From positions 640,001 through 704,000 of the forward strand of contig CM000431.1 in assembly GCA_000165345.1 (NCBI GenBank): a stretch of DNA of 64,000 nt, read 5' to 3'. This document shows positions 11,103 through 50,200 of the stretch, piece after piece. Position 1 is the stretch's first letter; each line of letters starts with the position of its first letter. Both the position numbers and the translations under genes were made by a program. A model generated the notes under the pieces. It was not told the origin of the DNA, made no database searches, and saw only the letters and a program-made list of their open reading frames with translations.

Positions 11103-11401
11103 TTAGAAACAAAAAAAAAAATAAAGAAGTGGACAGCATCAAAAGTAATTAAACATTAATATTGTACAGACACATTTATGTATTTAGCTTAAAATAATAC
11201 TCGATTTTCGAAATTTTGATTTATGAGTTTCTATCCTTAAATTTATATTTAAAAATAAACAAAATATGGTAAATATCAAACTCAAGATTTTATATTTAGT
11301 TTAAGATTGAAATTGTTGGTTCACTTTTTATTCTAGTTGAAATTCAAAGAAAAAATGTAAAATTAGTTTGCGCGCGTAGAATTTAGTCGTTACTTTTTAG
11401 A

Positions 11402-12231
11402 ATGTTTTTCAATAATCACAAAGAAAAGATATCATCTGAATTGGTAAGTTACTGCCTATCAAATTTGGGTTATTGTAATTTCTGTAGCTTAAGAATATAG
11501 GGAAGGATGGCATTTCTATTGAACTAACAAATATTGAACCATACATTATTAAAGATTTGATGCAATCATTCATTTACACTGAGGGTAAGTCGGACAACTA
11601 GATATAACGAATAAAATAAATTGATGTAGATATTAATACCACCAAACAACGAAATTCCAATTTTCCGAAGTTTCAGTTTAGTTTTTCTAAGGGTGACAAT
11701 TTTAATAGTCAATTATACGGCGGCTGTCCGAGCTGTGGTAATTCGTATGACTTCTTGTTTTTATTAGATGCTTTTGAGAACGAGTACACATCATCGTCTC
11801 ACAATTTGATTGAAAACCATTATTTGAGATGCAAAATATGTAATTACCGATTTTTGAAATTACACAATCATAATTCTTCAGATTCTACAATTAATACTAA
11901 TAGTAATTCTTTTGAGAAGAAGCGCATTTATATAACAGGTATTAGAAAATCGTTATGTTTTGGAACTAACAATAAGTGGTGGGCAAAGTCTATTAGCGTT
12001 GGGAAAAGAATAGAAAAAGAGTCAGATAATAAGTCAGGGAAATCCAATAGTGTTATTAGGGTTCTTGATGCTATGCATAAAAAGAAGGCTCCTAAAATCC
12101 AGGAAATTTGTCCTGAATGCTCACATAACGAGGCATTCTTTACTCAATTCCAGGCTAGATCTGCAGATGAGGGTACTACAGTCATGTATGAATGTTGTAA
12201 ATGCCAGCATCGTAGGGTTATTAATAATTAA
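11402..12231 (+). CDS. RNA polymerase zinc-ribbon subunit of the RPB9/RPA12/RPC11 family (closest to A12.2). Spliced model: join(11402..11443,11500..11584,11630..12231); only the last exon is secure.
   Basis: C-terminal TFIIS-type ribbon CPECSHNEAFFTQFQARSADEGTTVMYECCKCQHR. The N-terminal ribbon CPSC...CKIC lies in frame upstream of the track's TTG start with no in-frame ATG back to a stop at 11617, so an upstream exon is required. GTAAGT at 11585 with acceptor ...GATGTAG at 11629 gives a 45-nt intron; a second GTAAGT at 11444 follows an ATG mini-exon. Confidence 0.6.
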
Positions 12232-42065: not shown

Positions 42066-42783
42066 ATGGAGGAAAATAATCAAATATCGCTTTCCCTTTT
42101 AACTTTTTTAAGATATGAGTATTTAAATTATTGTATAAACAAATCATCTGAATTAATTTCAGATGAAAAGAATTTTCAGACTGTAAAACACTCTAAAAAA
42201 CTGTCAATAAGTGGATTACAAGTTTGCAAAGACTCACTAATAAGAGAACTTTCTATGTCAACTCTCGAAGAATCTGGATTTTATTTGGGAATTAGATTAG
42301 TTGAAAGGTTAGTGACACGGTTATTCACTGCGCAGCAACACATACTTTAGATTATCAGTATTCCGCCACAGAATTTATGATCAAAAAGAAATAATTAAAT
42401 TTATTTGCAAAGACTTATGGAACTTCATATTTCTCAAACAAGCAGATAGGCTCAAGACAAACAGAAGAGTAAGTTAATATTCTAATTAATGTTTTGAAAC
42501 ACGTTTTCAGGGTGGTTACGCAATATTAGATAACGAGTTAATATGGCTTTCAAAACTGCCAAGCTCGATTAGCGCAAACTCTAGAAAAGTGCAATTTGAA
42601 CCAGCAATCAACGTCATTATTGTATGTGGAATTATCAGAGGAGCATTACAGCATTTAGGGCTTACGTGCTCAGTAGCAGCAGAAGTCAGCAAGATTCCTT
42701 CTTGTAAGTTATTGTCGCGTATATTTTATTTTAATTCAGTTTTAGGCACGTTTCAAATACGTGTATATGCCCCATCAAGGTAA
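42066..42783 (+). CDS. TRAPP complex subunit TRAPPC6/Trs33 (Bet3 family). Four exons: join(42066..42307,42351..42468,42511..42703,42746..42783).
   Basis: Spliced product: ...GFYLGIRLVE|RLSVFRHRIYDQKEIIKFICKDLWNFIFLKQADRLKTNRR|GGYAILDNELIWL...VIIVCGIIRGALQHLGLTCSVAAEVSKIPS|CTFQIRVYAPSR*. It tracks human TRAPPC6B (MGFRVGQGLIERF...MKFICKDFW...NLRTNHQGIYVLQDN...FTCGLIRGGLSNLGIKSIVTAEVSSMPACKFQVMIQKL). Introns of 43, 42 and 42 nt (GTTAGT, GTAAGT, GTAAGT). The first acceptor could instead be 42371 (64-nt intron). The ORF track shows exons 1 and 3 as two unrelated ORFs. Confidence 0.75.
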
Positions 42784-43008: not shown

Positions 43009-45633
43009 ATGCGTATAGCTGGAATAAAGAGTAACTCAATTACGCCTTTGAGGCAGCCATTTGAAACATTTGTTACAGGGAATGATGGAACGTATAAGAG
43101 TATTGATAGATGGAGGTCAAAATATTACTCTTCCAACGATGATTATTTGTCTCCAACGTTCTTGGATGACTCTTGCTCGTTATCATCATCTCCAATATTT
43201 CATGATGAAACTCCAAATACCACCATAGGTACGCCGGTTACCTCTCCGCGTAAAAAGAGTAGTAGTACAAGAAAAGTCAGAGTTTCAATTGACTCTGTTC
43301 TCACTAATTCTAATGAAAATACACCTACAAACAACCTAAATTATAAAAGGCCACCTTCAATTGGTACTCCAATACTCACCCCTCCATCAGCAAAAACTGC
43401 TGTTCATGACAATGAGGGATTTTTGATACCTGACCTACCAGGGACATCAAGGACGAGGAATTTTAGGAGCAGTCACCGGAACGATATCTCAAGAAGCTGT
43501 AATAACTACTCATCTGCAGATCCCGTTCACATTACAATGCCGCCAAGACTAGGACTGCCATCACAAACTCCATTGAATATGAAAGACCAATATAGAAAGT
43601 CCCCTCTTCCTGTTGTATCAGCAAACTTGGATTACAGAACGGTTTACATGGGTGACAAACTGGCAGCAAGGGCAAAAGATTTAAGGAGGAATTATACTGT
43701 ATCTCTTCGTGAAGCTTCTCCCTTTTTTCGTAATAATTATGAGTATGATCATTCTTATTCAGAAAACCCTACGATTCATGAGGATGACCTTATTTTGCAT
43801 CGCGGGGAAATACTTAGAAACAAATACTCAAAGTTACACAGGGCTCGGCCCAGTACAAACTGTGTGGCTAGTGATCAAAGGAGTAGATCGCTTTCTTCTT
43901 ATTACTCAGAAAGCGCATCTAGAAAAAATTTCTCTCCAGGATATAGAAGTAACTCCCTATATAATAACTATCGCCACTCGATTTTCGGGAATTTTAGGTG
44001 GAATAACAAGAGACGAAGATTAGGAAGCTATATTGCCAGCCAAAATGATATCTTACAACAACATATTCAAATAATCGACAAATCTTTAGATAGATCATCC
44101 AATGGTGATTTTGCTCTTTTTGAAGGTGGAATGCTTGACTCTCCAGATAGTAATAAAAATTGCACGCATGAATCAAGCAGTCCGATAAAAAGTAGATATA
44201 TCAATTCACAAGAACTTAACTTTAATTTAGAAAAAAGTTCAGTAAAAGCCATCTCAAGTCCAAGCAATGAGGTTAAATCAAGTAATATAAACTCTCGTGA
44301 AGCAAACAACTCGGAGGCCATAAACTACACAACGGACAATATGAAGAACTTAGAAGTGCCTTCCGATTCGGGAAAGCTTACTTTCAAACATTTTGACTCA
44401 AATGAGCCAGACGATCCTGCACAACCCAATGATCAAGATGTTTCATTTAATTCAGTTTTTGGCTCTTCGCAAGCCAACGAATATGGAGAATCTGACATTC
44501 AAGACCTATCTGTTGTTGTAATGAGTAGTTCATCAAAAAAGTGTTTACCCTCTGCAATTTCAAATTCAAGTTTGGATGAAATTGTGCCACATCCGATTCC
44601 CAACTCGTCTGAAATATCCAATAGAGATATATATGGAGCACCAAATGAAATTGAATCATTTACCAATGACGATAGTCACTCTAATGAGAATAAGCCTGAA
44701 AAAAGTAAAAATGTAAAAAACAAAAGGACCAGAGCTGACAGCCAAAAAAAACACGCTAGAGGTAAGACAATAAATAGAAGGCGTCACATTGACTATCATA
44801 TACCGATAGATCAAGTCAAACCACCACCTGGAATAGGTACAAAACCATTGTCTGATGAGCCTTCAAACTTTGAGAACTCATCCAGAAGATATCCCAAGAG
44901 ACTCAGGACAGCTCCGCTTAAATGGTACCTGGGTGAAAGGCTGGAATACCATCGAGATGAAAAGAACGAACTTGGCTACACAATTGCCGCTATACACAAG
45001 GTTGCAAACCCAAAGATGCTTCCTAATGAGCGTGGGAGTATCCATCCCAACAGTGATATTTCTACATACCCAGCTTCTTGCAAACCTAATACTGATGAAC
45101 TTGAATTTCACAAAAAAAGTAACCGTGACGTTTGTTCCGACAAATCAAAACCTAGAGCTGAGAATACAAATATATCAAAGAAGGTCAAGTCTAAAGTAAA
45201 GCGTGTTTCTGGAAACGATCAAGAAAAAAAATCTAATGCTGTTATTCTTAAAGATTATGAAACAAATGAAGAATTTTCAATGATATCTGTATTTGACAGA
45301 AATACTCTATGCTGGGCTGATGTTGAGTACACTGCAGGTAAACCATATAGTGTTGCTCTTTCTTTTATATCTAGTCAAGCAACTTGCTGTGAAATATGCC
45401 TTCCTCCTCTAACTGAGAAAGGGCTCGATGAAAGTCAAGATAATTACATACTAGGGCATGTATATATGGCCCCGGATAGTAAATCTTTACAAATAATGAT
45501 AAGTGATAACAATGTTTACAACATTGGTGTTGGAGACTGGTTCCTAATACCTGACAATACGAACTACAATTTCAGCAATACTTCTGATCATTCAGAAATT
45601 TATATTTCTTTGTATGTTATTAAGGATAGTTAG
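43009..45633 (+). CDS. Ser-rich kinetochore protein CENP-C/Mif2-like (CENP-C motif plus C-terminal cupin fold).
   Basis: RRYPKRLRTAPLKWYLGERLEYHRDE matches the CENP-C motif (R.S.R..P...YW.GE...Y). The last ~120 aa (CWADVEYTAGKPYSVALSFISS...GDWFLIPDNTNYNFSN...IYISLYVI) look like the Mif2/CENP-C cupin. The track starts at TTG 42997; first ATG at 43009. Confidence 0.55.
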   Translation: MRIAGIKSNSITPLRQPFETFVTGNDGTYKSIDRWRSKYYSSNDDYLSPTFLDDSCSLSSSPIFHDETPNTTIGTPVTSPRKKSSSTRKVRVSIDSVLTNSNENTPTNNLNYKRPPSIGTPILTPPSAKTAVHDNEGFLIPDLPGTSRTRNFRSSHRNDISRSCNNYSSADPVHITMPPRLGLPSQTPLNMKDQYRKSPLPVVSANLDYRTVYMGDKLAARAKDLRRNYTVSLREASPFFRNNYEYDHSYSENPTIHEDDLILHRGEILRNKYSKLHRARPSTNCVASDQRSRSLSSYYSESASRKNFSPGYRSNSLYNNYRHSIFGNFRWNNKRRRLGSYIASQNDILQQHIQIIDKSLDRSSNGDFALFEGGMLDSPDSNKNCTHESSSPIKSRYINSQELNFNLEKSSVKAISSPSNEVKSSNINSREANNSEAINYTTDNMKNLEVPSDSGKLTFKHFDSNEPDDPAQPNDQDVSFNSVFGSSQANEYGESDIQDLSVVVMSSSSKKCLPSAISNSSLDEIVPHPIPNSSEISNRDIYGAPNEIESFTNDDSHSNENKPEKSKNVKNKRTRADSQKKHARGKTINRRRHIDYHIPIDQVKPPPGIGTKPLSDEPSNFENSSRRYPKRLRTAPLKWYLGERLEYHRDEKNELGYTIAAIHKVANPKMLPNERGSIHPNSDISTYPASCKPNTDELEFHKKSNRDVCSDKSKPRAENTNISKKVKSKVKRVSGNDQEKKSNAVILKDYETNEEFSMISVFDRNTLCWADVEYTAGKPYSVALSFISSQATCCEICLPPLTEKGLDESQDNYILGHVYMAPDSKSLQIMISDNNVYNIGVGDWFLIPDNTNYNFSNTSDHSEIYISLYVIKDS

Positions 45634-45656
45634 TTATGATAATTTATCTTTTCCCT

Positions 45657-47034
45657 CTATATCCACGTTCTTCTGAGTATTTTACTTGGTAAATAAGTAT
45701 TCACCAAATAATCACTAGAAATTGATTGGAATGCTTCTAATTCGCATTTATAATTATGTTCATACATCAGTTTGCATTGCCGACAAAGTATCTCACATTC
45801 CTATTTGTGTTAATTGTTACTTGTACTTAATGTTCGTGCTTACCTTTATTGCTGGATCTTCTATTAGTGATTTCAAGGTGGATCTATCTTTTTCGGATAG
45901 AATAACCCTTGTCTACAAAAAATTAACTTAACTTTTATAGCATTATAACTTACATCGGATGGAATGAGTTCTGTATCTTCAAAATGTATTCCCAAATAAT
46001 ATATACTTGGACAAGCTAAAATATATAAAACAAAATTATGGAGTAAAGTTTATTGTCATACCTGCCAATTGTGATTCAAAATTGCTTGAACCTCGTACGT
46101 ATGTTAGGTATATATTGATGCCATGTGGATCAAAGTCCCCTAAATATAAAGCCTATCAGAACTTATAAGAGGTAATAAAAATAAGTGAGAACTTACTGTA
46201 ATTCCAGATTTACATATAATGTCGGAGACTAATTTCCTAGTTGAAATATCTGGAAAGCCTTTACCTACTTTGAATTATTTATAATAAAAACATTTTTTTA
46301 CATACCCGTAATTACCAAACAAGGAATCCTATTATAAATCTCTCTCTCCATTAAATACTGAAATATCGAAGCCTTTTCAATAACTAATAAATATTTCACA
46401 TTTGTCTTTATTATATATTTACTGTCATTTGGATCAAATATATCTGTGATCGTTGCTCCTGACACTCCAAGTTCTTCAACGTCTAAAAAATCTGAATTCT
46501 AAGAATAATTTGAAAATATAAAAATGTGAACCCTTACTTTATAAATTAGTTTTATTCTTCCGCCAATCATTCCTTTTGGAGAAGGGAATAATCCAAATGA
46601 TATTCTTGGTATCTGCAGGATTTCTGAAAAGTCTAAATTTCAGGTTTATTAATTATCATTATTTTGTTTACTTACTTTGCACTATTCTATTTACTTGGGA
46701 TTGACTCTATAAAGGGTGATTTATTATAAATATTTGTAGTTTAGTACTTACCTTAAAAAGCCAACTATTATGATAGTATAACTCTCTTAATGTTAATTTT
46801 CTACCTCTTTTCTGTGCACTATGTAAAACGTTCGCAATTGAAGTAACTAATTAAATTGTTTAAGTAAATTATTTAAAAAACCAACTTACTCTTTGCAATA
46901 TTAATTACATCATTTTTTCTTCTTGATGAGCCAATAATATATTGATCGCATTGTAAAGATTCAATCCAATTTAGTGTATTAAAAGATGTAGATTTCCCCA
47001 AATTAAATAAAACAATATCTTCAATAAAATTCAT
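45657..47034 (-). CDS. SPO11: Meiotic recombination protein SPO11 (topoisomerase VI subunit A family). Ten exons: complement(join(45657..45800,45844..45912,45954..46015,46062..46152,46197..46264,46306..46498,46538..46632,46676..46706,46752..46846,46890..47034)); 330 aa.
   Basis: Hand-spliced on the minus strand. Exon 2 carries the catalytic-Tyr motif QKRGRKLTLRELYYHNS. Exons 5-6 carry the TOPRIM core KYLLVIEKASIFQYLMEREIYNRIPCLVITG|KGFPDISTRKLV. Exon 7 carries YLGDFDPHGINIYLTYVRGS. Exons 8-10 end ...LIPSD|TRVILSEKDRSTLKSLIEDPAIK|...KCELEAFQSISSDYLVNTYLPSKILRRTWI*, matching the mouse SPO11 C-terminus (KAEIEALSSLSSDYLSRVYLPNKLRFGGWI) as I remember it. There are nine introns of 39-46 nt with donors GTAAGT x5, GTAAGG, GTATGT, GTATGA and GTAAGC, and YAG acceptors; phases are consistent and total 993 nt. 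The ORF track shows nothing here except a 69-aa antisense fragment. Confidence 0.85.
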
Positions 47035-47214
47035 TTATACTTCATTAAGCAAAAGCAACAAAATAAATAATTTACCTCCCTTCTAAATAGTTGTATATTT
47101 ATAAGTATTTCAATATAATTTTTTTCCTGGTTATTTTTTTATCTTGAAAATCTAATAATTTTTTAAATTACCGCAATAAAGAAAACATTTATTATTAAAT
47201 TGTACCACATTATA

Positions 47215-50200
47215 ATGGTAAAAATAACGAATGATGAAAATGAAAGGACGATTATATTGAATAATAAAAATGAAGAAAGCTTTATCCATTCATTCAAAAG
47301 ACTTAATGTAATAAAAACAGCAAGATATTCTCTTTTATTTTTTTTACCAAAAAATCTATATGATCAATTTAACAATGTTGCAAATATTTACTTTTTGGCA
47401 ATAGGTATTATGCAAATGGTACCTTCAATATCATCATCTGGTGGAATCCCTACAATAGCTCTTCCTTTAATATGTATGTTATGTTTTTCTGCGGCGCAAG
47501 CAGCATATGAAGATTGGAAAAGACATAAAGCAGACTCAGAAATAAACAACCTTCCTACGTATGCATATGATCCAATTAAAGGTAATTTTGCAGTCACAAA
47601 ATGGGGTGATTTGAAGAACGGAGATCTTGTAATTGTTAAAAATAGAGAAATTTTTCCTGCTGATATGGTATTACTTGCCTCTAGTCAAAATGATAATCGA
47701 GTGTTTGTCGAGACTGCCTCAATGGACGGTGAAACAAACCTAAAGCTTCGAGAAAGCCCTAGAATTCTTTTTAATAATGGAGTTAGAAATATTAGTGATA
47801 TCCTTACTATTTCAAAAGGTATAATGTATTGTGGGGAGCCAAATGATCACCCAAAAAAGATACATATAAATTCAAAATTTGTGTTGAAAAATTCTAAGGA
47901 CGATGAAAAAGAACTCAATTTTTCGTGTAATTCATCAAATATGTTATTACGTGGGTGTAAGCTAAGAAACACCTCATGGGCACTTGGCGTTGTGGCATAC
48001 ACTGCTCATGAAACGAAAATTTATCAAAGCAGTTTTAGATCAGCCCCACATAAAATGAGTAATGTACAATCTTTATATAACCAAGTAACTATTGCATCAT
48101 TCATCTTCTTGTTGTTTATTTGCCTTTCTTTTGGAATTATTGTAGCTTGCATTGATTACTTTGGAGGACCAGAATTGTCGAAAAAGTTTATTCCAATTGG
48201 GAAAATGGAGCCCAACGAAAGTGTGATTAAAACTTCAATAATTACTTTTTTTACCTGGATTATTGTTCTTGCAAATCTAATACCTATTGGAATGTTTTTT
48301 TATTTAGTAATATCCAAAGTTTCACAAGCAATAATCATTGCTTCAGATTCTAGATTAACAAGTCAAAACTCTACTGTTGTAAGGAATTCAGATTTAAATG
48401 ACGAGCTAGGTCAGGTATCTTATATTTGTACTGACAAAACAGGAACATTAACAAGGAATTACATGGAATTCAAAACTGTTTGTATTAACGGAAACGTATA
48501 TGGAGGTAACCATCACGAAATGAGGCAAGATACAGATCAATTGAGTATTGAACACACAGAAAAACAAAAAATAACTCCGCATGTTGACATGGAAGATGAA
48601 TTACTGAGAAAAAACTTAAAAGAAGGAAATAAGGAAGAGATAGAAATACTATTGAATTTTGCTCTAAACCATACAGTATTAATACAAGAAAATGAGGTTG
48701 ATTTAGATGAACCACCTCTCTATTCGGCAAGTTCAACTGATGAGGAAGCGCTTGTATTAGCTTCCCACCACTTTGGAATATCACTAGTTTCCCAAAACTG
48801 CTCAAAAAGTACAATTAAATTTTCTGGGATAGGAACTAACCAAACTTCTGTTGAGTTTGAAACATTGCTAAGATTTGAATTTGACCACGCAAGAAAAATA
48901 AGTTCAGTATTGGTAAAATTCCCAAAAAAAATCTTTAGTTACGAGTCAAATGATTCAGATGGTTATAGGTATATCCTATTTTCTAAAGGATCGGAATCTG
49001 CAATAAAAGAATGTTGTGTTAATCAAGAAAGTTTGGATATTGCTAATGAAACATTTGAATATGCAACAGAATTTGCTAGTAATGGCTATAGGACACTGTG
49101 TTTTGCAAAAAAAGAACTTAGTGAAAATGAAGTTATTGATATTTTAAATAACTTTAAACATGACAATAAAATTCATTTAGAAGAAGTTAGAACATTCTTT
49201 GAAAGCAACTTGACTCTACAGGGGTGTTCCGGAATTGAAGATATCTTACAGCACCGTGCCCAGGAAACGATTGAGTCACTGATTGCTTCAGGTATCAAAG
49301 TTTGGATGCTTACCGGCGATCGACAAGAAACTGCAATAAACATTGCAGTTAGGGTTGGAATCATTTCAGATGAAATGGAAGTTATTATTTTTGATGAAAA
49401 TAAACTTGAATCATTTTCAAATAATTTAATTAAAGAATTTCCCGATAGATCAAGTTTTTTGAATAGAGAAAATGGCTCATTCAATTTCTCAAATGTAGTA
49501 TTAGTCATTGATTCCAAAATATTGGAAAAGGCCCTAGTAATTGATGAAGCTAAATTTGCAAAAATTGCAACAAAATGTTCATCTGTAGTTTGTTCTAGAG
49601 TTACACCTCAACAAAAAGCACAAGTTGTCAAGTTAATTCAGGAATTTACAAAGCAAAGAGTATTAGCAATTGGTGATGGCGGAAATGACTGTACTATGTT
49701 ACAAACTGCAAATGTTGGTGTTGGCATCCATGGTTCAGAAGGCATGCAAGCTTATAATGTATCTGATTTTGGTATTTCCCAATTCTGTCATCTTCAACCT
49801 TTGGTTCTTATACACGGAAGGCTCTGTTACAGAAGAACATCTATTTTGGTGCTATATAACCTTTACAAATGTTTTACTCTAAATATTGTGAGTGTTTATT
49901 TTGGTTTTGCATCGCTTTTCACAGGGTCTAAATTGTTTTTTGAATTACTATTCCAGTTATATAACTTTCTATATACTTCAGTACCTCCCATAATTTTTGC
50001 AACATTTGATTCAGATATTCCAATTACATTACCATATGATTATCACGAGCCACTTTATTTATTAGGCATAACCAAGCCATTCTTTTCATTAAAAATATTT
50101 GGGATTTGGTCCATGAATGCTGTTTTCCATGCAGCGGTATCATTGTTCATTCCTTACTTTATTTTGGGAGGCAACAATCCAATATCAAATGATGGATACG

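What the first reader, a model, noticed from the sequence alone, without database searches (positions are those of the whole stretch)
45657..47034. A 10-exon SPO11 gene hidden in an 'empty' 1.5-kb gap
The ORF track shows only a 69-aa junk ORF between the CENP-C-like gene and the P4-ATPase. The plus strand there is studded with ACTTAC hexamers, which are GTAAGT donors on the minus strand. Splicing ten exons through nine 39-46 nt introns gives a 330-aa protein with the Spo11 catalytic tyrosine motif (RELYY), the TOPRIM core (LLVIEKASIF...LVITGKGFPD, DFDPHGINI) and a C-terminal tail matching vertebrate SPO11 as I remember it (SSDYL..YLP.K....WI). This is the meiotic DSB-forming enzyme. It is the most intron-dense gene in a window where most large genes have no introns, and it ends 23 bp from the convergent CENP-C-like gene.
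Basis: seen in the sequence. Interest (0 to 1): 0.85.

Follow-up and report, generated by a model that had tools for sequence, protein, structure and literature searches.

The report
Ten-exon Cryptosporidium Spo11-family gene
The apparently empty gap holds a real, conserved ten-exon gene for a Spo11-type DNA-breaking enzyme of the parasite Cryptosporidium; the gene is already in public databases (cgd3_2720), although most of its gene models there are truncated or mis-spliced.

Summary
On the minus strand, 47034..45657, ten exons joined through nine GT..AG introns of 39-46 nt give a 330-aa protein. It has strong Pfam matches to TP6A_N (5.8e-16) and TOP6A-Spo11_Toprim (1.6e-44), and all catalytic residues are present (R69, Y73, E163, D215/D217, E303). 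Spliced alignment guided only by C. andersoni or Toxoplasma proteins recovers the same nine introns. All nine positions and phases recur in six other Cryptosporidium species.

The window is Cryptosporidium parvum-type chromosome 3, and the gene is cgd3_2720. It is not new. C. hominis CUV05184.1 already carries the same 330-aa model, whereas the C. parvum models found are fragments or mis-spliced (201+56, 235, 239+56, 271 aa).

It is probably the SPO11-2 paralogue, not "the" SPO11. Its Plasmodium orthologues are named SPO11-2, NJ bootstrap support for grouping with SPO11-2 anchors is 82%, and a separate gene, cgd8_1350, is the likely SPO11-1. Published RNA-seq shows it about 20-fold up in female stages, which fits a meiotic break-forming role. 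That role is inferred, not shown.

Verdict: a correct reading of a known gene. It is useful mainly for curation.

The parts
45657..47034 (-). Whole gene (ATG to stop): cgd3_2720 orthologue, a Spo11/TopoVIA-family protein of 330 aa
   Evidence: Same ends as the gene annotated in GCA_048859185.1.
46890..47034 (-). Exon 1 (145 nt, aa 1-49); N-terminus MNFIEDIVLFNLGK
   Evidence: N-terminus conserved in the genus.
46847..46889 (-). Intron 1 (43 nt, phase 1, GTAAGT..AG)
   Evidence: Position and phase shared with Toxoplasma.
46752..46846 (-). Exon 2 (95 nt); winged-helix part with R69 and catalytic Y73 (codon 46775-46773)
46707..46751 (-). Intron 2 (45 nt, phase 0); ends with an in-frame TAG if retained
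46676..46706 (-). Exon 3 (31 nt micro-exon)
   Evidence: Length is 31 nt in all seven species.
46633..46675 (-). Intron 3 (43 nt, phase 1)
46538..46632 (-). Exon 4 (95 nt)
46499..46537 (-). Intron 4 (39 nt, phase 0, GTAAGG donor)
   Evidence: This junction is present in the partial model CPATCC_0033720.
46306..46498 (-). Exon 5 (193 nt); start of the Toprim domain, E163 (codon 46378-46376)
46265..46305 (-). Intron 5 (41 nt, phase 1, GTATGT). A tandem AG 3 nt upstream would give 331 aa
   Evidence: TGKGFPD conservation favours the 41-nt form.
46197..46264 (-). Exon 6 (68 nt)
46153..46196 (-). Intron 6 (44 nt, phase 0)
   Evidence: Position and phase shared with Toxoplasma.
46062..46152 (-). Exon 7 (91 nt); DxD metal-binding motif D215/D217 (46137-46129)
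46016..46061 (-). Intron 7 (46 nt, phase 1, GTATGA)
45954..46015 (-). Exon 8 (62 nt)
45913..45953 (-). Intron 8 (41 nt, phase 0)
45844..45912 (-). Exon 9 (69 nt)
45801..45843 (-). Intron 9 (43 nt, phase 0, GTAAGC)
45657..45800 (-). Exon 10 (141 nt coding plus TAG); Toprim E303 and the conserved tail ...YLPSKILRRTWI
47035..47214 (.). 180-bp divergent intergenic region shared with the P4-ATPase gene (ATG at 47215, + strand); presumed promoter
   Evidence: for coordinates. Promoter function is an inference.

Best explanation
The window is Cryptosporidium parvum-type chromosome 3. Positions 47034..45657 (minus strand) hold a real protein-coding gene, cgd3_2720, with ten exons and nine very short spliceosomal introns. 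Its 330-aa product belongs to the Spo11/topoisomerase-VI-A family: a winged-helix domain carrying the catalytic tyrosine (Y73, with R69), followed by a Toprim domain with the metal-binding residues (E163, D215, D217, E303).

By orthology it is most likely the apicomplexan SPO11-2 paralogue. The SPO11-1 paralogue is a different gene, cgd8_1350.

Inferred mechanism: after fertilisation the protein acts in the female or zygote stage. It pairs with itself or, as in plants, with SPO11-1, together with the apicomplexan TopoVIB-like subunit. The tyrosine attacks the DNA backbone in a Mg2+-dependent transesterification and makes the double-strand breaks that start meiotic recombination.

Shown here: the gene structure, its conservation, family membership and intact catalytic residues. 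Taken from the literature: female-biased expression and the two-paralogue arrangement. Inferred: the heterodimer and the break-forming role in Cryptosporidium.
For: - **Gene model.**. The same nine introns come out of homology-guided spliced alignment against C. andersoni and Toxoplasma proteins.
- **Conservation.** The nine positions and phases are conserved in six other species. Eight of the ten exon lengths are identical in all seven species, while intron lengths vary from 39 to 95 nt. Substitutions fall mainly on third codon positions (68 against 24 and 21; 104 against 35 and 19; 180 against 100 and 60). Exons are more conserved than introns, and intron GC is 21% against 31% for exons.
- **Family.** Pfam E-values of 1.6e-44 and 5.8e-16. 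PDB sequence hits to Top6A (3e-17) and yeast Spo11 (8e-12). An AF2 model of the 86%-identical orthologue has pLDDT 81, and Foldseek hits only Top6A and Spo11 chains at E<=2e-13, the next hit being 0.12.
- **Identity.** Synteny and locus naming place it as cgd3_2720.
- **Paralogue.** The closest Plasmodium proteins are annotated 'meiotic recombination protein SPO11-2' and are 334-336 aa, like PF3D7_1027600. A review (PMC9261774) maps PfSpo11 (PF3D7_1217100) to a different C. parvum protein. NJ bootstrap groups the apicomplexan clade with DxN-type plant and algal SPO11-2 anchors in 164 of 200 replicates, against 28 of 200 for animal SPO11. Allen & Maxwell 2024 (PMC11302465) place the two apicomplexan paralogues in the SPO11-1 and SPO11-2 clades and find no topo VI.
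- **Expression.** Tandel 2019 (PMC6877471) supplement: cgd3_2720 at log2 CPM 1.6 in asexual stages against 6.0 and 5.6 in females; logFC 4.3.
Against: - No transcript evidence for the junctions could be examined here. The exact 330-aa protein is not in the 15-billion-protein collection, and a junction 28-mer is absent from JGI metagenome contigs.
- Subfamily HMM scoring does not separate SPO11-1 from SPO11-2 for the apicomplexan clade (270 against 261 bits). BLAST similarity to animal SPO11 and to plant or algal SPO11-2 is about equal.
- The protein keeps DxD rather than the DxN typical of plant SPO11-2. Its tail looks like animal SPO11 and archaeal Top6A.
- Plasmodium SPO11-2 is reported to be essential in asexual stages (cited), so a non-meiotic role cannot be excluded.
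- The C. parvum reference annotation, which keeps only RNA-seq-supported introns, has the gene in two pieces. One piece uses a different acceptor.
Confidence: 0.72

Rival explanations
1. It is the canonical SPO11-1 orthologue, the single meiotic Spo11 as in animals and fungi.
For: Mammalian, spider and other animal SPO11 proteins are among the best non-apicomplexan hits. The C-terminal tail is almost identical to primate SPO11. The DxD motif is intact. The SPO11-1 HMM scores slightly higher than the SPO11-2 HMM.
Against: NJ bootstrap supports this grouping in only 28 of 200 replicates. The Plasmodium orthologues are the SPO11-2-named genes. PfSpo11 (PF3D7_1217100) is mapped in the literature to another C. 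parvum protein. A second Cryptosporidium paralogue, cgd8_1350, exists and carries the Spo11 name. The shared tail is ancestral, being also present in archaeal Top6A.
Confidence: 0.2
2. It is a genuine topoisomerase VI A subunit (SPO11-3 type) that works with a TopoVIB subunit as a type IIB topoisomerase in DNA decatenation, as the database name 'topoisomerase VIA' suggests.
For: Public names for the orthologues are 'topoisomerase VIA' or 'DNA topoisomerase (ATP-hydrolyzing)'. The best PDB sequence and fold hits are archaeal Top6A. Decatenation activity has been claimed for Plasmodium Spo11/TopoVIB (cited).
Against: Allen & Maxwell 2024 find no SPO11-3, no canonical TOP6B, and no RHL1 or BIN4 in Apicomplexa, Cryptosporidium included. 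Archaeal sequences are the most distant in my distance matrix (1.8-1.9 against 1.4-1.7). Expression is near zero in asexual, replicating stages and is induced in females. Archaeal structures top the PDB list because yeast Spo11 is highly divergent and was the only eukaryotic Spo11 structure recovered.
Confidence: 0.05
3. It is a decaying pseudogene or a chance chain of open segments, not a functional gene.
For: C. parvum reference annotations give only 'partial' fragments. No full-length transcript was seen here.
Against: The reading frame is intact, exon lengths and intron phases are strictly conserved in seven species down to 52% protein identity, third-position substitutions are in excess, every catalytic residue is conserved, and expression is stage-regulated.
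Confidence: 0.02

Closest known systems
Cryptosporidium hominis UKH1 protein CUV05184.1 (UniRef A0A0S4TCZ7, 330 aa), and the 330/331-aa models of Cryptosporidium sp. chipmunk genotype I and C. andersoni
   Same: Collinear, gap-free 96% identity to CUV05184.1 and the same length, which implies the same ten-exon splicing. Syntenic position between the P4-ATPase and the cupin/CENP-C-like gene.
   Different: The window's own species has no full-length model among the public records retrieved here. The C. parvum models are 235 aa partial (Iowa II), 201+56 aa (IOWA-ATCC), 239+56 aa (BGF) and 271 aa mis-spliced (GCA_048859185.1).
Apicomplexan SPO11-2 (Plasmodium PF3D7_1027600 family; Toxoplasma 'putative topoisomerase VIA')
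   Same: Closest homologues outside the genus: Toxoplasma at 41% identity and P. knowlesi SPO11-2 at 31% over the full length. Similar size, 330-344 aa. Two intron positions and phases are shared with Toxoplasma.
   Different: Plasmodium SPO11-2 is reported essential in asexual blood stages. The Cryptosporidium gene is almost silent in asexual stages and induced in females.
Plant SPO11-2 (Arabidopsis/rice type), partner of SPO11-1 in the meiotic break complex
   Same: Same family and same catalytic architecture. Groups with plant and algal SPO11-2-type sequences in 82% of NJ bootstraps.
   Different: Plant SPO11-2 has DxN in place of DxD; this protein keeps D215-F-D217. A heterodimer with SPO11-1 is not shown for any apicomplexan.
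Animal and yeast Spo11 (SPO11-1), and archaeal topoisomerase VI subunit A
   Same: Winged-helix domain with catalytic Tyr plus Toprim fold. R, Y, E, DxD and E are conserved. The C-terminal YLPxK...W(I) tail is shared with primate SPO11 and M. jannaschii Top6A.
   Different: About 29-31% identity to animal SPO11. A shorter N-terminus (about 45 aa before the winged helix). It is not the orthologue: a separate SPO11-1-type gene exists on chromosome 8.

Membership tests
Spo11 / topoisomerase VI subunit A family | N-terminal winged-helix (TP6A_N) domain above the Pfam gathering score | tested here: met
   PF04406: 58.5 bits against a cut-off of 26, E 5.8e-16, aa 46-104.
Spo11 / topoisomerase VI subunit A family | Toprim domain of the TOP6A-Spo11 type, full length | tested here: met
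   PF21180: 152.4 bits against a cut-off of 24.1, E 1.6e-44, profile positions 1-170 of 170.
Spo11 / topoisomerase VI subunit A family | Catalytic tyrosine with the adjacent arginine, Toprim glutamate, DxD, second glutamate and Toprim glycine (residue set of Allen & Maxwell Fig. S1) | tested here: met
   R69, Y73, E163, TGKG(187-189), D215/D217 and E303 are present. Y73, E163 and D215 are invariant, and R69 and D217 at least 90% conserved, in the 19-sequence alignment.
Spo11 / topoisomerase VI subunit A family | Three-dimensional fold matches solved Top6A/Spo11 structures | tested here: met
   AF2 model of the 86%-identical orthologue (pLDDT 81.4). Foldseek ranks 1-10 are all Top6A or Spo11 (E 9e-22 to 2e-13); rank 11 has E 0.12.
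Spo11 / topoisomerase VI subunit A family | Forms covalent 5'-phosphotyrosyl DNA breaks as a dimer with a B or B-like subunit | not testable with these tools
   Needs biochemistry or genetics.
SPO11-2 clade | Phylogenetic placement with SPO11-2 rather than SPO11-1 or SPO11-3 | tested here: inconclusive
   NJ bootstrap 164/200 with DxN-type plant and algal anchors against 28/200 with animal SPO11. Subfamily HMM scores are nearly equal. No ML tree was possible, and the second Cryptosporidium paralogue was not retrieved.
SPO11-2 clade | Orthology to the apicomplexan gene that the literature and databases call SPO11-2 | tested here: met
   The nearest Plasmodium homologue family includes proteins named SPO11-2 (P. 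knowlesi, P. brasilianum), 334-336 aa, next to centrin as expected for PF3D7_1027600. PfSpo11-1 maps to a different C. parvum accession.
SPO11-2 clade | DxN variant of the metal-binding motif (always in plants, only sometimes in protists) | tested here: not met
   The motif is D-F-D. This is not a strict requirement: the dinoflagellate SPO11-2 in Allen & Maxwell Fig. S1 also keeps DYD.
SPO11-1 clade | Groups with animal, fungal and plant SPO11-1, and is the single best homologue of PfSpo11 (PF3D7_1217100) | tested here: not met
   Supported in 28/200 bootstraps. The literature maps PfSpo11 to QOY39886, not to this locus's QOY42624/QOY42625.
Topoisomerase VI (SPO11-3 + TOP6B holoenzyme) | Canonical TOP6B with an H2TH domain, plus RHL1 and BIN4 partners, in the same genome | not tested
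   Not searched here. Allen & Maxwell 2024 report these absent in Apicomplexa, Cryptosporidium included, with only a TopoVIB-like subunit present.
Meiosis-associated gene | Expression restricted to or induced in sexual or zygotic stages | tested here: met
   From published data only: Tandel 2019 supplement, logFC female against asexual of 4.3 for cgd3_2720. No reads were examined here.

The most novel reading that the evidence does not exclude
The unusual intron load may be a regulatory device. The gene has nine tiny introns conserved across the genus, at the reported maximum of ten exons per gene for C. parvum. Every intron would introduce a frameshift or an in-frame stop if retained. The Toxoplasma orthologue also has seven atypically short introns. 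Stage-specific splicing, or unproductive splice-site choice such as the alternative acceptor behind the annotated 56-aa fragment, could keep this DNA-breaking enzyme off outside meiosis, as yeast does with meiosis-specific splicing.
Probability: 0.08. Interest if true: 0.6.

Novelty: already known. Interest (0 to 1): 0.2.

Why it matters
Biologically this is an expected component. Apicomplexans are already known to have two Spo11 paralogues and a TopoVIB-like subunit, and Cryptosporidium females are known to switch on meiotic genes.

The practical value is curation.
- The C. parvum records retrieved here, including the IOWA-ATCC (CPATCC) annotation and the record of the assembly this window comes from, carry truncated, split or mis-spliced models.
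- Four other species (C. ryanae, C. canis, C. ubiquitum, C. felis) have shortened models that lack part of the enzyme.
- The name 'topoisomerase VIA' is misleading.

A correct 330-aa model with the catalytic tyrosine in frame is what anyone would need to tag, mutate (Y73F) or knock out the gene when studying meiosis and oocyst formation, the transmission step of this pathogen.

Tried and rejected
- **Spliced-alignment code.** My first version had an update-order bug and too light an intron penalty. It gave spurious introns and read through a stop. I fixed it and re-ran it.
- **Subfamily HMMs.** HMMs for SPO11-1 and for DxN-type SPO11-2 could not classify the apicomplexan clade: the difference was 9-19 bits, against about 150 bits for true members, which were in the training sets.
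- **NJ tree.** The first tree of the top 150 representatives was star-like and uninformative until clades were anchored by names.
- **AlphaFold.** The first run, with a 4-sequence alignment, gave pLDDT 55.6 and was discarded. A 19-sequence alignment gave 81.4.
- **Tool restriction.** Orthologues were used instead.
- **Literature.** Malik et al. 2007 (the original Spo11-1/-2/-3 phylogeny) is not held. A search for cgd3_2720, cgd8_1350 and CPATCC_0033720 in main texts found nothing. The agamococcidian paper gave no paralogue-level information for Cryptosporidium.
- **Junction search.** An exon5/exon6 junction 28-mer was not found in JGI metagenome contigs. This is uninformative.
- **331-aa alternative.** I considered the product with the acceptor 3 nt upstream at intron 5. 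It would insert a Val into the invariant TGKGFPD motif.
Full report
**1. What is in the sequence**

I read 47300..45400 on the minus strand. An ATG lies at 47034, followed by alternating open segments and short AT-rich stretches that begin with GTAAGT-like sequences and end in AG.

I searched exhaustively from that ATG over strong donors (GTAAG/GTATG) and any AG 30-79 nt downstream. The two longest open chains give 331-aa and 330-aa products ending at 45657. They differ only by a tandem acceptor at intron 5.
- ten exons of 145, 95, 31, 95, 193, 68, 91, 62, 69 and 144 nt;
- nine introns of 43, 45, 43, 39, 41, 44, 46, 41 and 43 nt.

ACTTAC occurs five times in these 1,378 bp, against 0.29 expected from the rest of the window (P about 1e-5). 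The mechanical ORF list shows only small ORFs here, the longest being the 69-aa plus-strand ORF. The convergent upstream ORF ends at 45633, 23 bp from this gene's stop.

**2. Is the splice model real?**

Three independent lines say yes.

(a) A protein-to-genome spliced aligner that I wrote received only the C. andersoni protein (52% identical) or the Toxoplasma protein (about 40%) as a guide. It recovered exactly the same nine introns in the window. An earlier buggy version was discarded.

(b) I applied the same aligner to the syntenic loci of six other species: chipmunk genotype I, C. andersoni, C. ryanae, C. canis, C. ubiquitum and C. felis. In all six it finds nine GT..AG introns at the same codon positions with the same phases (1,0,1,0,1,0,1,0,0). 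The resulting proteins are complete, 327-331 aa, and all end ...W-I-stop.

(c) Eight of the ten exon lengths are identical in all seven species, while intron lengths drift from 39 to 95 nt.
- Exons are more conserved than introns, for example 88.6% against 77.0% with the chipmunk genotype.
- Substitutions concentrate at third codon positions (24/21/68, 35/19/104 and 100/60/180).
- Intron GC is 21% and exon GC 31%. Published C. parvum genome-wide values are 22% and 32%.

I could not look at RNA reads. Indirect transcript support does exist. The IOWA-ATCC reannotation states that its introns are 100% RNA-seq-supported. Its partial model CPATCC_0033720 contains the junctions of my introns 4-9.

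**3. What organism and what gene**

The flanking P4-ATPase protein is found exactly on CM109963.1 of GCA_048859185.1, a Cryptosporidium parvum-type assembly. That record annotates a gene with the same ends (1,378 bp) but a 271-aa product.

Homology searches return only Cryptosporidium orthologues, followed by Toxoplasma, Neospora and Besnoitia.

Cluster look-ups show how uneven the public models are:
- C. hominis CUV05184.1 is 330 aa and aligns gap-free at 96% identity to my model.
- Chipmunk genotype I (330 aa) and C. andersoni (331 aa) are also complete.
- C. parvum has only a 235-aa partial (Iowa II), 201+56 aa (CPATCC_0033720 and CPATCC_0033730), 239+56 aa (BGF) and 271 aa.
- The exact 330-aa C. 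parvum sequence is not in the 15-billion-protein collection.

The 56-aa fragment arises from an alternative acceptor at 46819, which shifts the frame into a stop.

Gene order in the Tandel 2019 supplement identifies the locus as cgd3_2720: cgd3_2700 is TRAPP, cgd3_2710 is an 'RmlC-like jelly roll' protein, and cgd3_2720 is an 'unspecified product' sharing an OrthoMCL group with cgd8_1350, 'Spo11/DNA topoisomerase 6 subunit A'.

**4. Family membership**

- Pfam: TP6A_N at E 5.8e-16 and TOP6A-Spo11_Toprim at E 1.6e-44 over the whole profile.
- PDB by sequence: M. jannaschii, M. mazei and S. shibatae Top6A (3e-17 to 3e-14) and yeast Spo11 (8e-12).
- Structure: an AlphaFold model of the 86%-identical orthologue, built with a 19-sequence alignment, reaches pLDDT 81. 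Foldseek against the PDB returns only Top6A and Spo11 chains at E<=2e-13, with the next hit at 0.12.
- Catalytic residues: the set listed by Allen & Maxwell (WHD-R, catalytic Y, Toprim E1, Toprim G, DxD, Toprim E2) is complete here as R69, Y73, E163, TGKG, D215/D217 and E303.

**5. Which paralogue?**

Allen & Maxwell 2024 report that Apicomplexa, Cryptosporidium included, have two SPO11 paralogues, one in the SPO11-1 clade and one in SPO11-2. They report one TopoVIB-like subunit and no topo VI.

An exhaustive profile search finds 4,081 relatives. The best non-coccidian hit is a Plasmodium protein (P0026), followed by a mix of two groups:
- animal SPO11 (human cluster, spiders, insects);
- proteins with a DxN motif, which look-ups show to include a flowering plant, Mesostigma and Cyanophora. 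The DxN motif marks these as SPO11-2.

The evidence on placement is as follows.
- In NJ bootstraps the apicomplexan clade groups with the SPO11-2 anchors in 164 of 200 replicates and with animal SPO11 in 28 of 200.
- Subfamily HMMs and pairwise BLAST are undecided.
- The Plasmodium family of P0026 contains proteins named 'meiotic recombination protein SPO11-2'. They are 334-336 aa, and some models are fused to the neighbouring centrin. This matches PF3D7_1027600 (336 aa, 'Spo11-2'), as opposed to PF3D7_1217100 (327 aa, 'Spo11').
- The same review (PMC9261774) maps PF3D7_1217100 to a different C. parvum accession from this locus.

I therefore assign this gene to SPO11-2 with about 70% confidence. 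Unlike plant SPO11-2 it retains DxD, as does the dinoflagellate SPO11-2 shown.

**6. Function**

In sorted-cell RNA-seq (Tandel 2019), cgd3_2720 averages log2 CPM 1.6 in asexual parasites, against 6.0 in females in vitro and 5.6 in vivo (logFC 4.3). cgd8_1350 behaves similarly, with logFC 3.5. The authors list Spo11 among the female-expressed meiotic recombination factors.

With an intact active site, the most likely mechanism is Spo11-type, tyrosine-mediated double-strand break formation at meiosis in the zygote. It possibly acts as a SPO11-1/SPO11-2 heterodimer with the TopoVIB-like subunit, as in plants. That last step is inference from established knowledge of plant SPO11-1/-2.

One caveat: Plasmodium SPO11-2 is reported essential in asexual stages. 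The near-absent asexual expression here argues against the same being true for Cryptosporidium.

**7. Context claims**

I compared annotated gene spans with product lengths across the window. About 30 genes are intronless. Only a TFIIS-type gene (89 nt of intron), the TRAPP gene (127 nt) and this gene (385 nt in nine introns) are spliced.

Isaza et al. 2015 report that about 10.8% of C. parvum genes have introns, with 2-10 exons per intron-bearing gene and a mean of 2.6. A ten-exon gene therefore sits at the genome's maximum.

The neighbour's 'CENP-C-like' label has only sub-threshold support.

**8. Verdict**

The finding is not new biology. The gene is annotated, a correct model exists in a sister species, and the two-paralogue Spo11 system of Apicomplexa is published.

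What this adds is twofold: a corrected full-length model for C. parvum and for four other species, and the point that this is probably SPO11-2 and neither 'the' SPO11 nor a topoisomerase VI subunit.

Noticed in passing
L009 1501-2934 (Toxoplasma gondii orthologue): The Toxoplasma orthologue has seven introns of only 53-65 nt. From my own knowledge, that is far shorter than typical T. gondii introns of several hundred nt. Two of them share exact position and phase with Cryptosporidium introns 1 and 6, and a third lies one nucleotide from intron 3. Some of these introns therefore predate the split of the two lineages.
   Followed up: partly
window 46819-46889 (minus strand): The annotated 56-aa C. 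parvum proteins (CPATCC_0033730 / cpbgf_3002720, ...NIAKMHRKEVEN) come from joining exon 1 to an alternative AG at 46819, giving a 71-nt intron. This shifts the frame into a stop and cuts off the catalytic-tyrosine exon. Whether it is a real unproductive isoform or an annotation artefact is unknown. The AG lies in a His-Ser codon pair that is His-Asn in several other species' proteins.
   Followed up: partly
L005, L006, L007, L008 (C. ryanae, C. canis, C. ubiquitum, C. felis loci): The public protein models for this gene in these species (293, 305, 231 and 213 aa) are truncated or skip exons. Homology-guided splicing gives complete 327-330-aa proteins with the conserved ...W-I C-terminus in each.
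   Followed up: yes
window 43009-45633 (+), cgd3_2710: The 874-aa convergent neighbour has only a sub-threshold CENP-C_C (cupin) hit at its C-terminus (aa 796-861, E 1.1e-3, 19.6 bits against a cut-off of 29). This is consistent with CryptoDB's 'RmlC-like jelly roll fold' label. In the chipmunk-genotype and C. canis annotations it appears fused to the upstream TRAPP gene (1,053-1,055 aa products with a TRAPP domain).
   Followed up: partly
window about 11401-12230 (+) and 42066-42783 (+): These are the only other spliced genes in the window: a TFIIS-type zinc-ribbon gene (246 aa in 830 bp) and the TRAPP-component gene (196 aa in 718 bp). Plus-strand GTAAGT hexamers at 11444/11585 and 42469/42704 fall inside them.
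   Followed up: no
proteins P0033 (Hylaeus volcanicus) and P0214/P0224 (Plasmodium): A bee RefSeq 'SPO11-like' protein sits next to the alveolate/apicomplexan clade in the NJ tree and carries the same GDYDPHG motif; it may be a contaminant scaffold. Separately, several Plasmodium SPO11-2 models are fused to the neighbouring centrin gene (EF-hand domains plus Toprim in one product).
   Followed up: no
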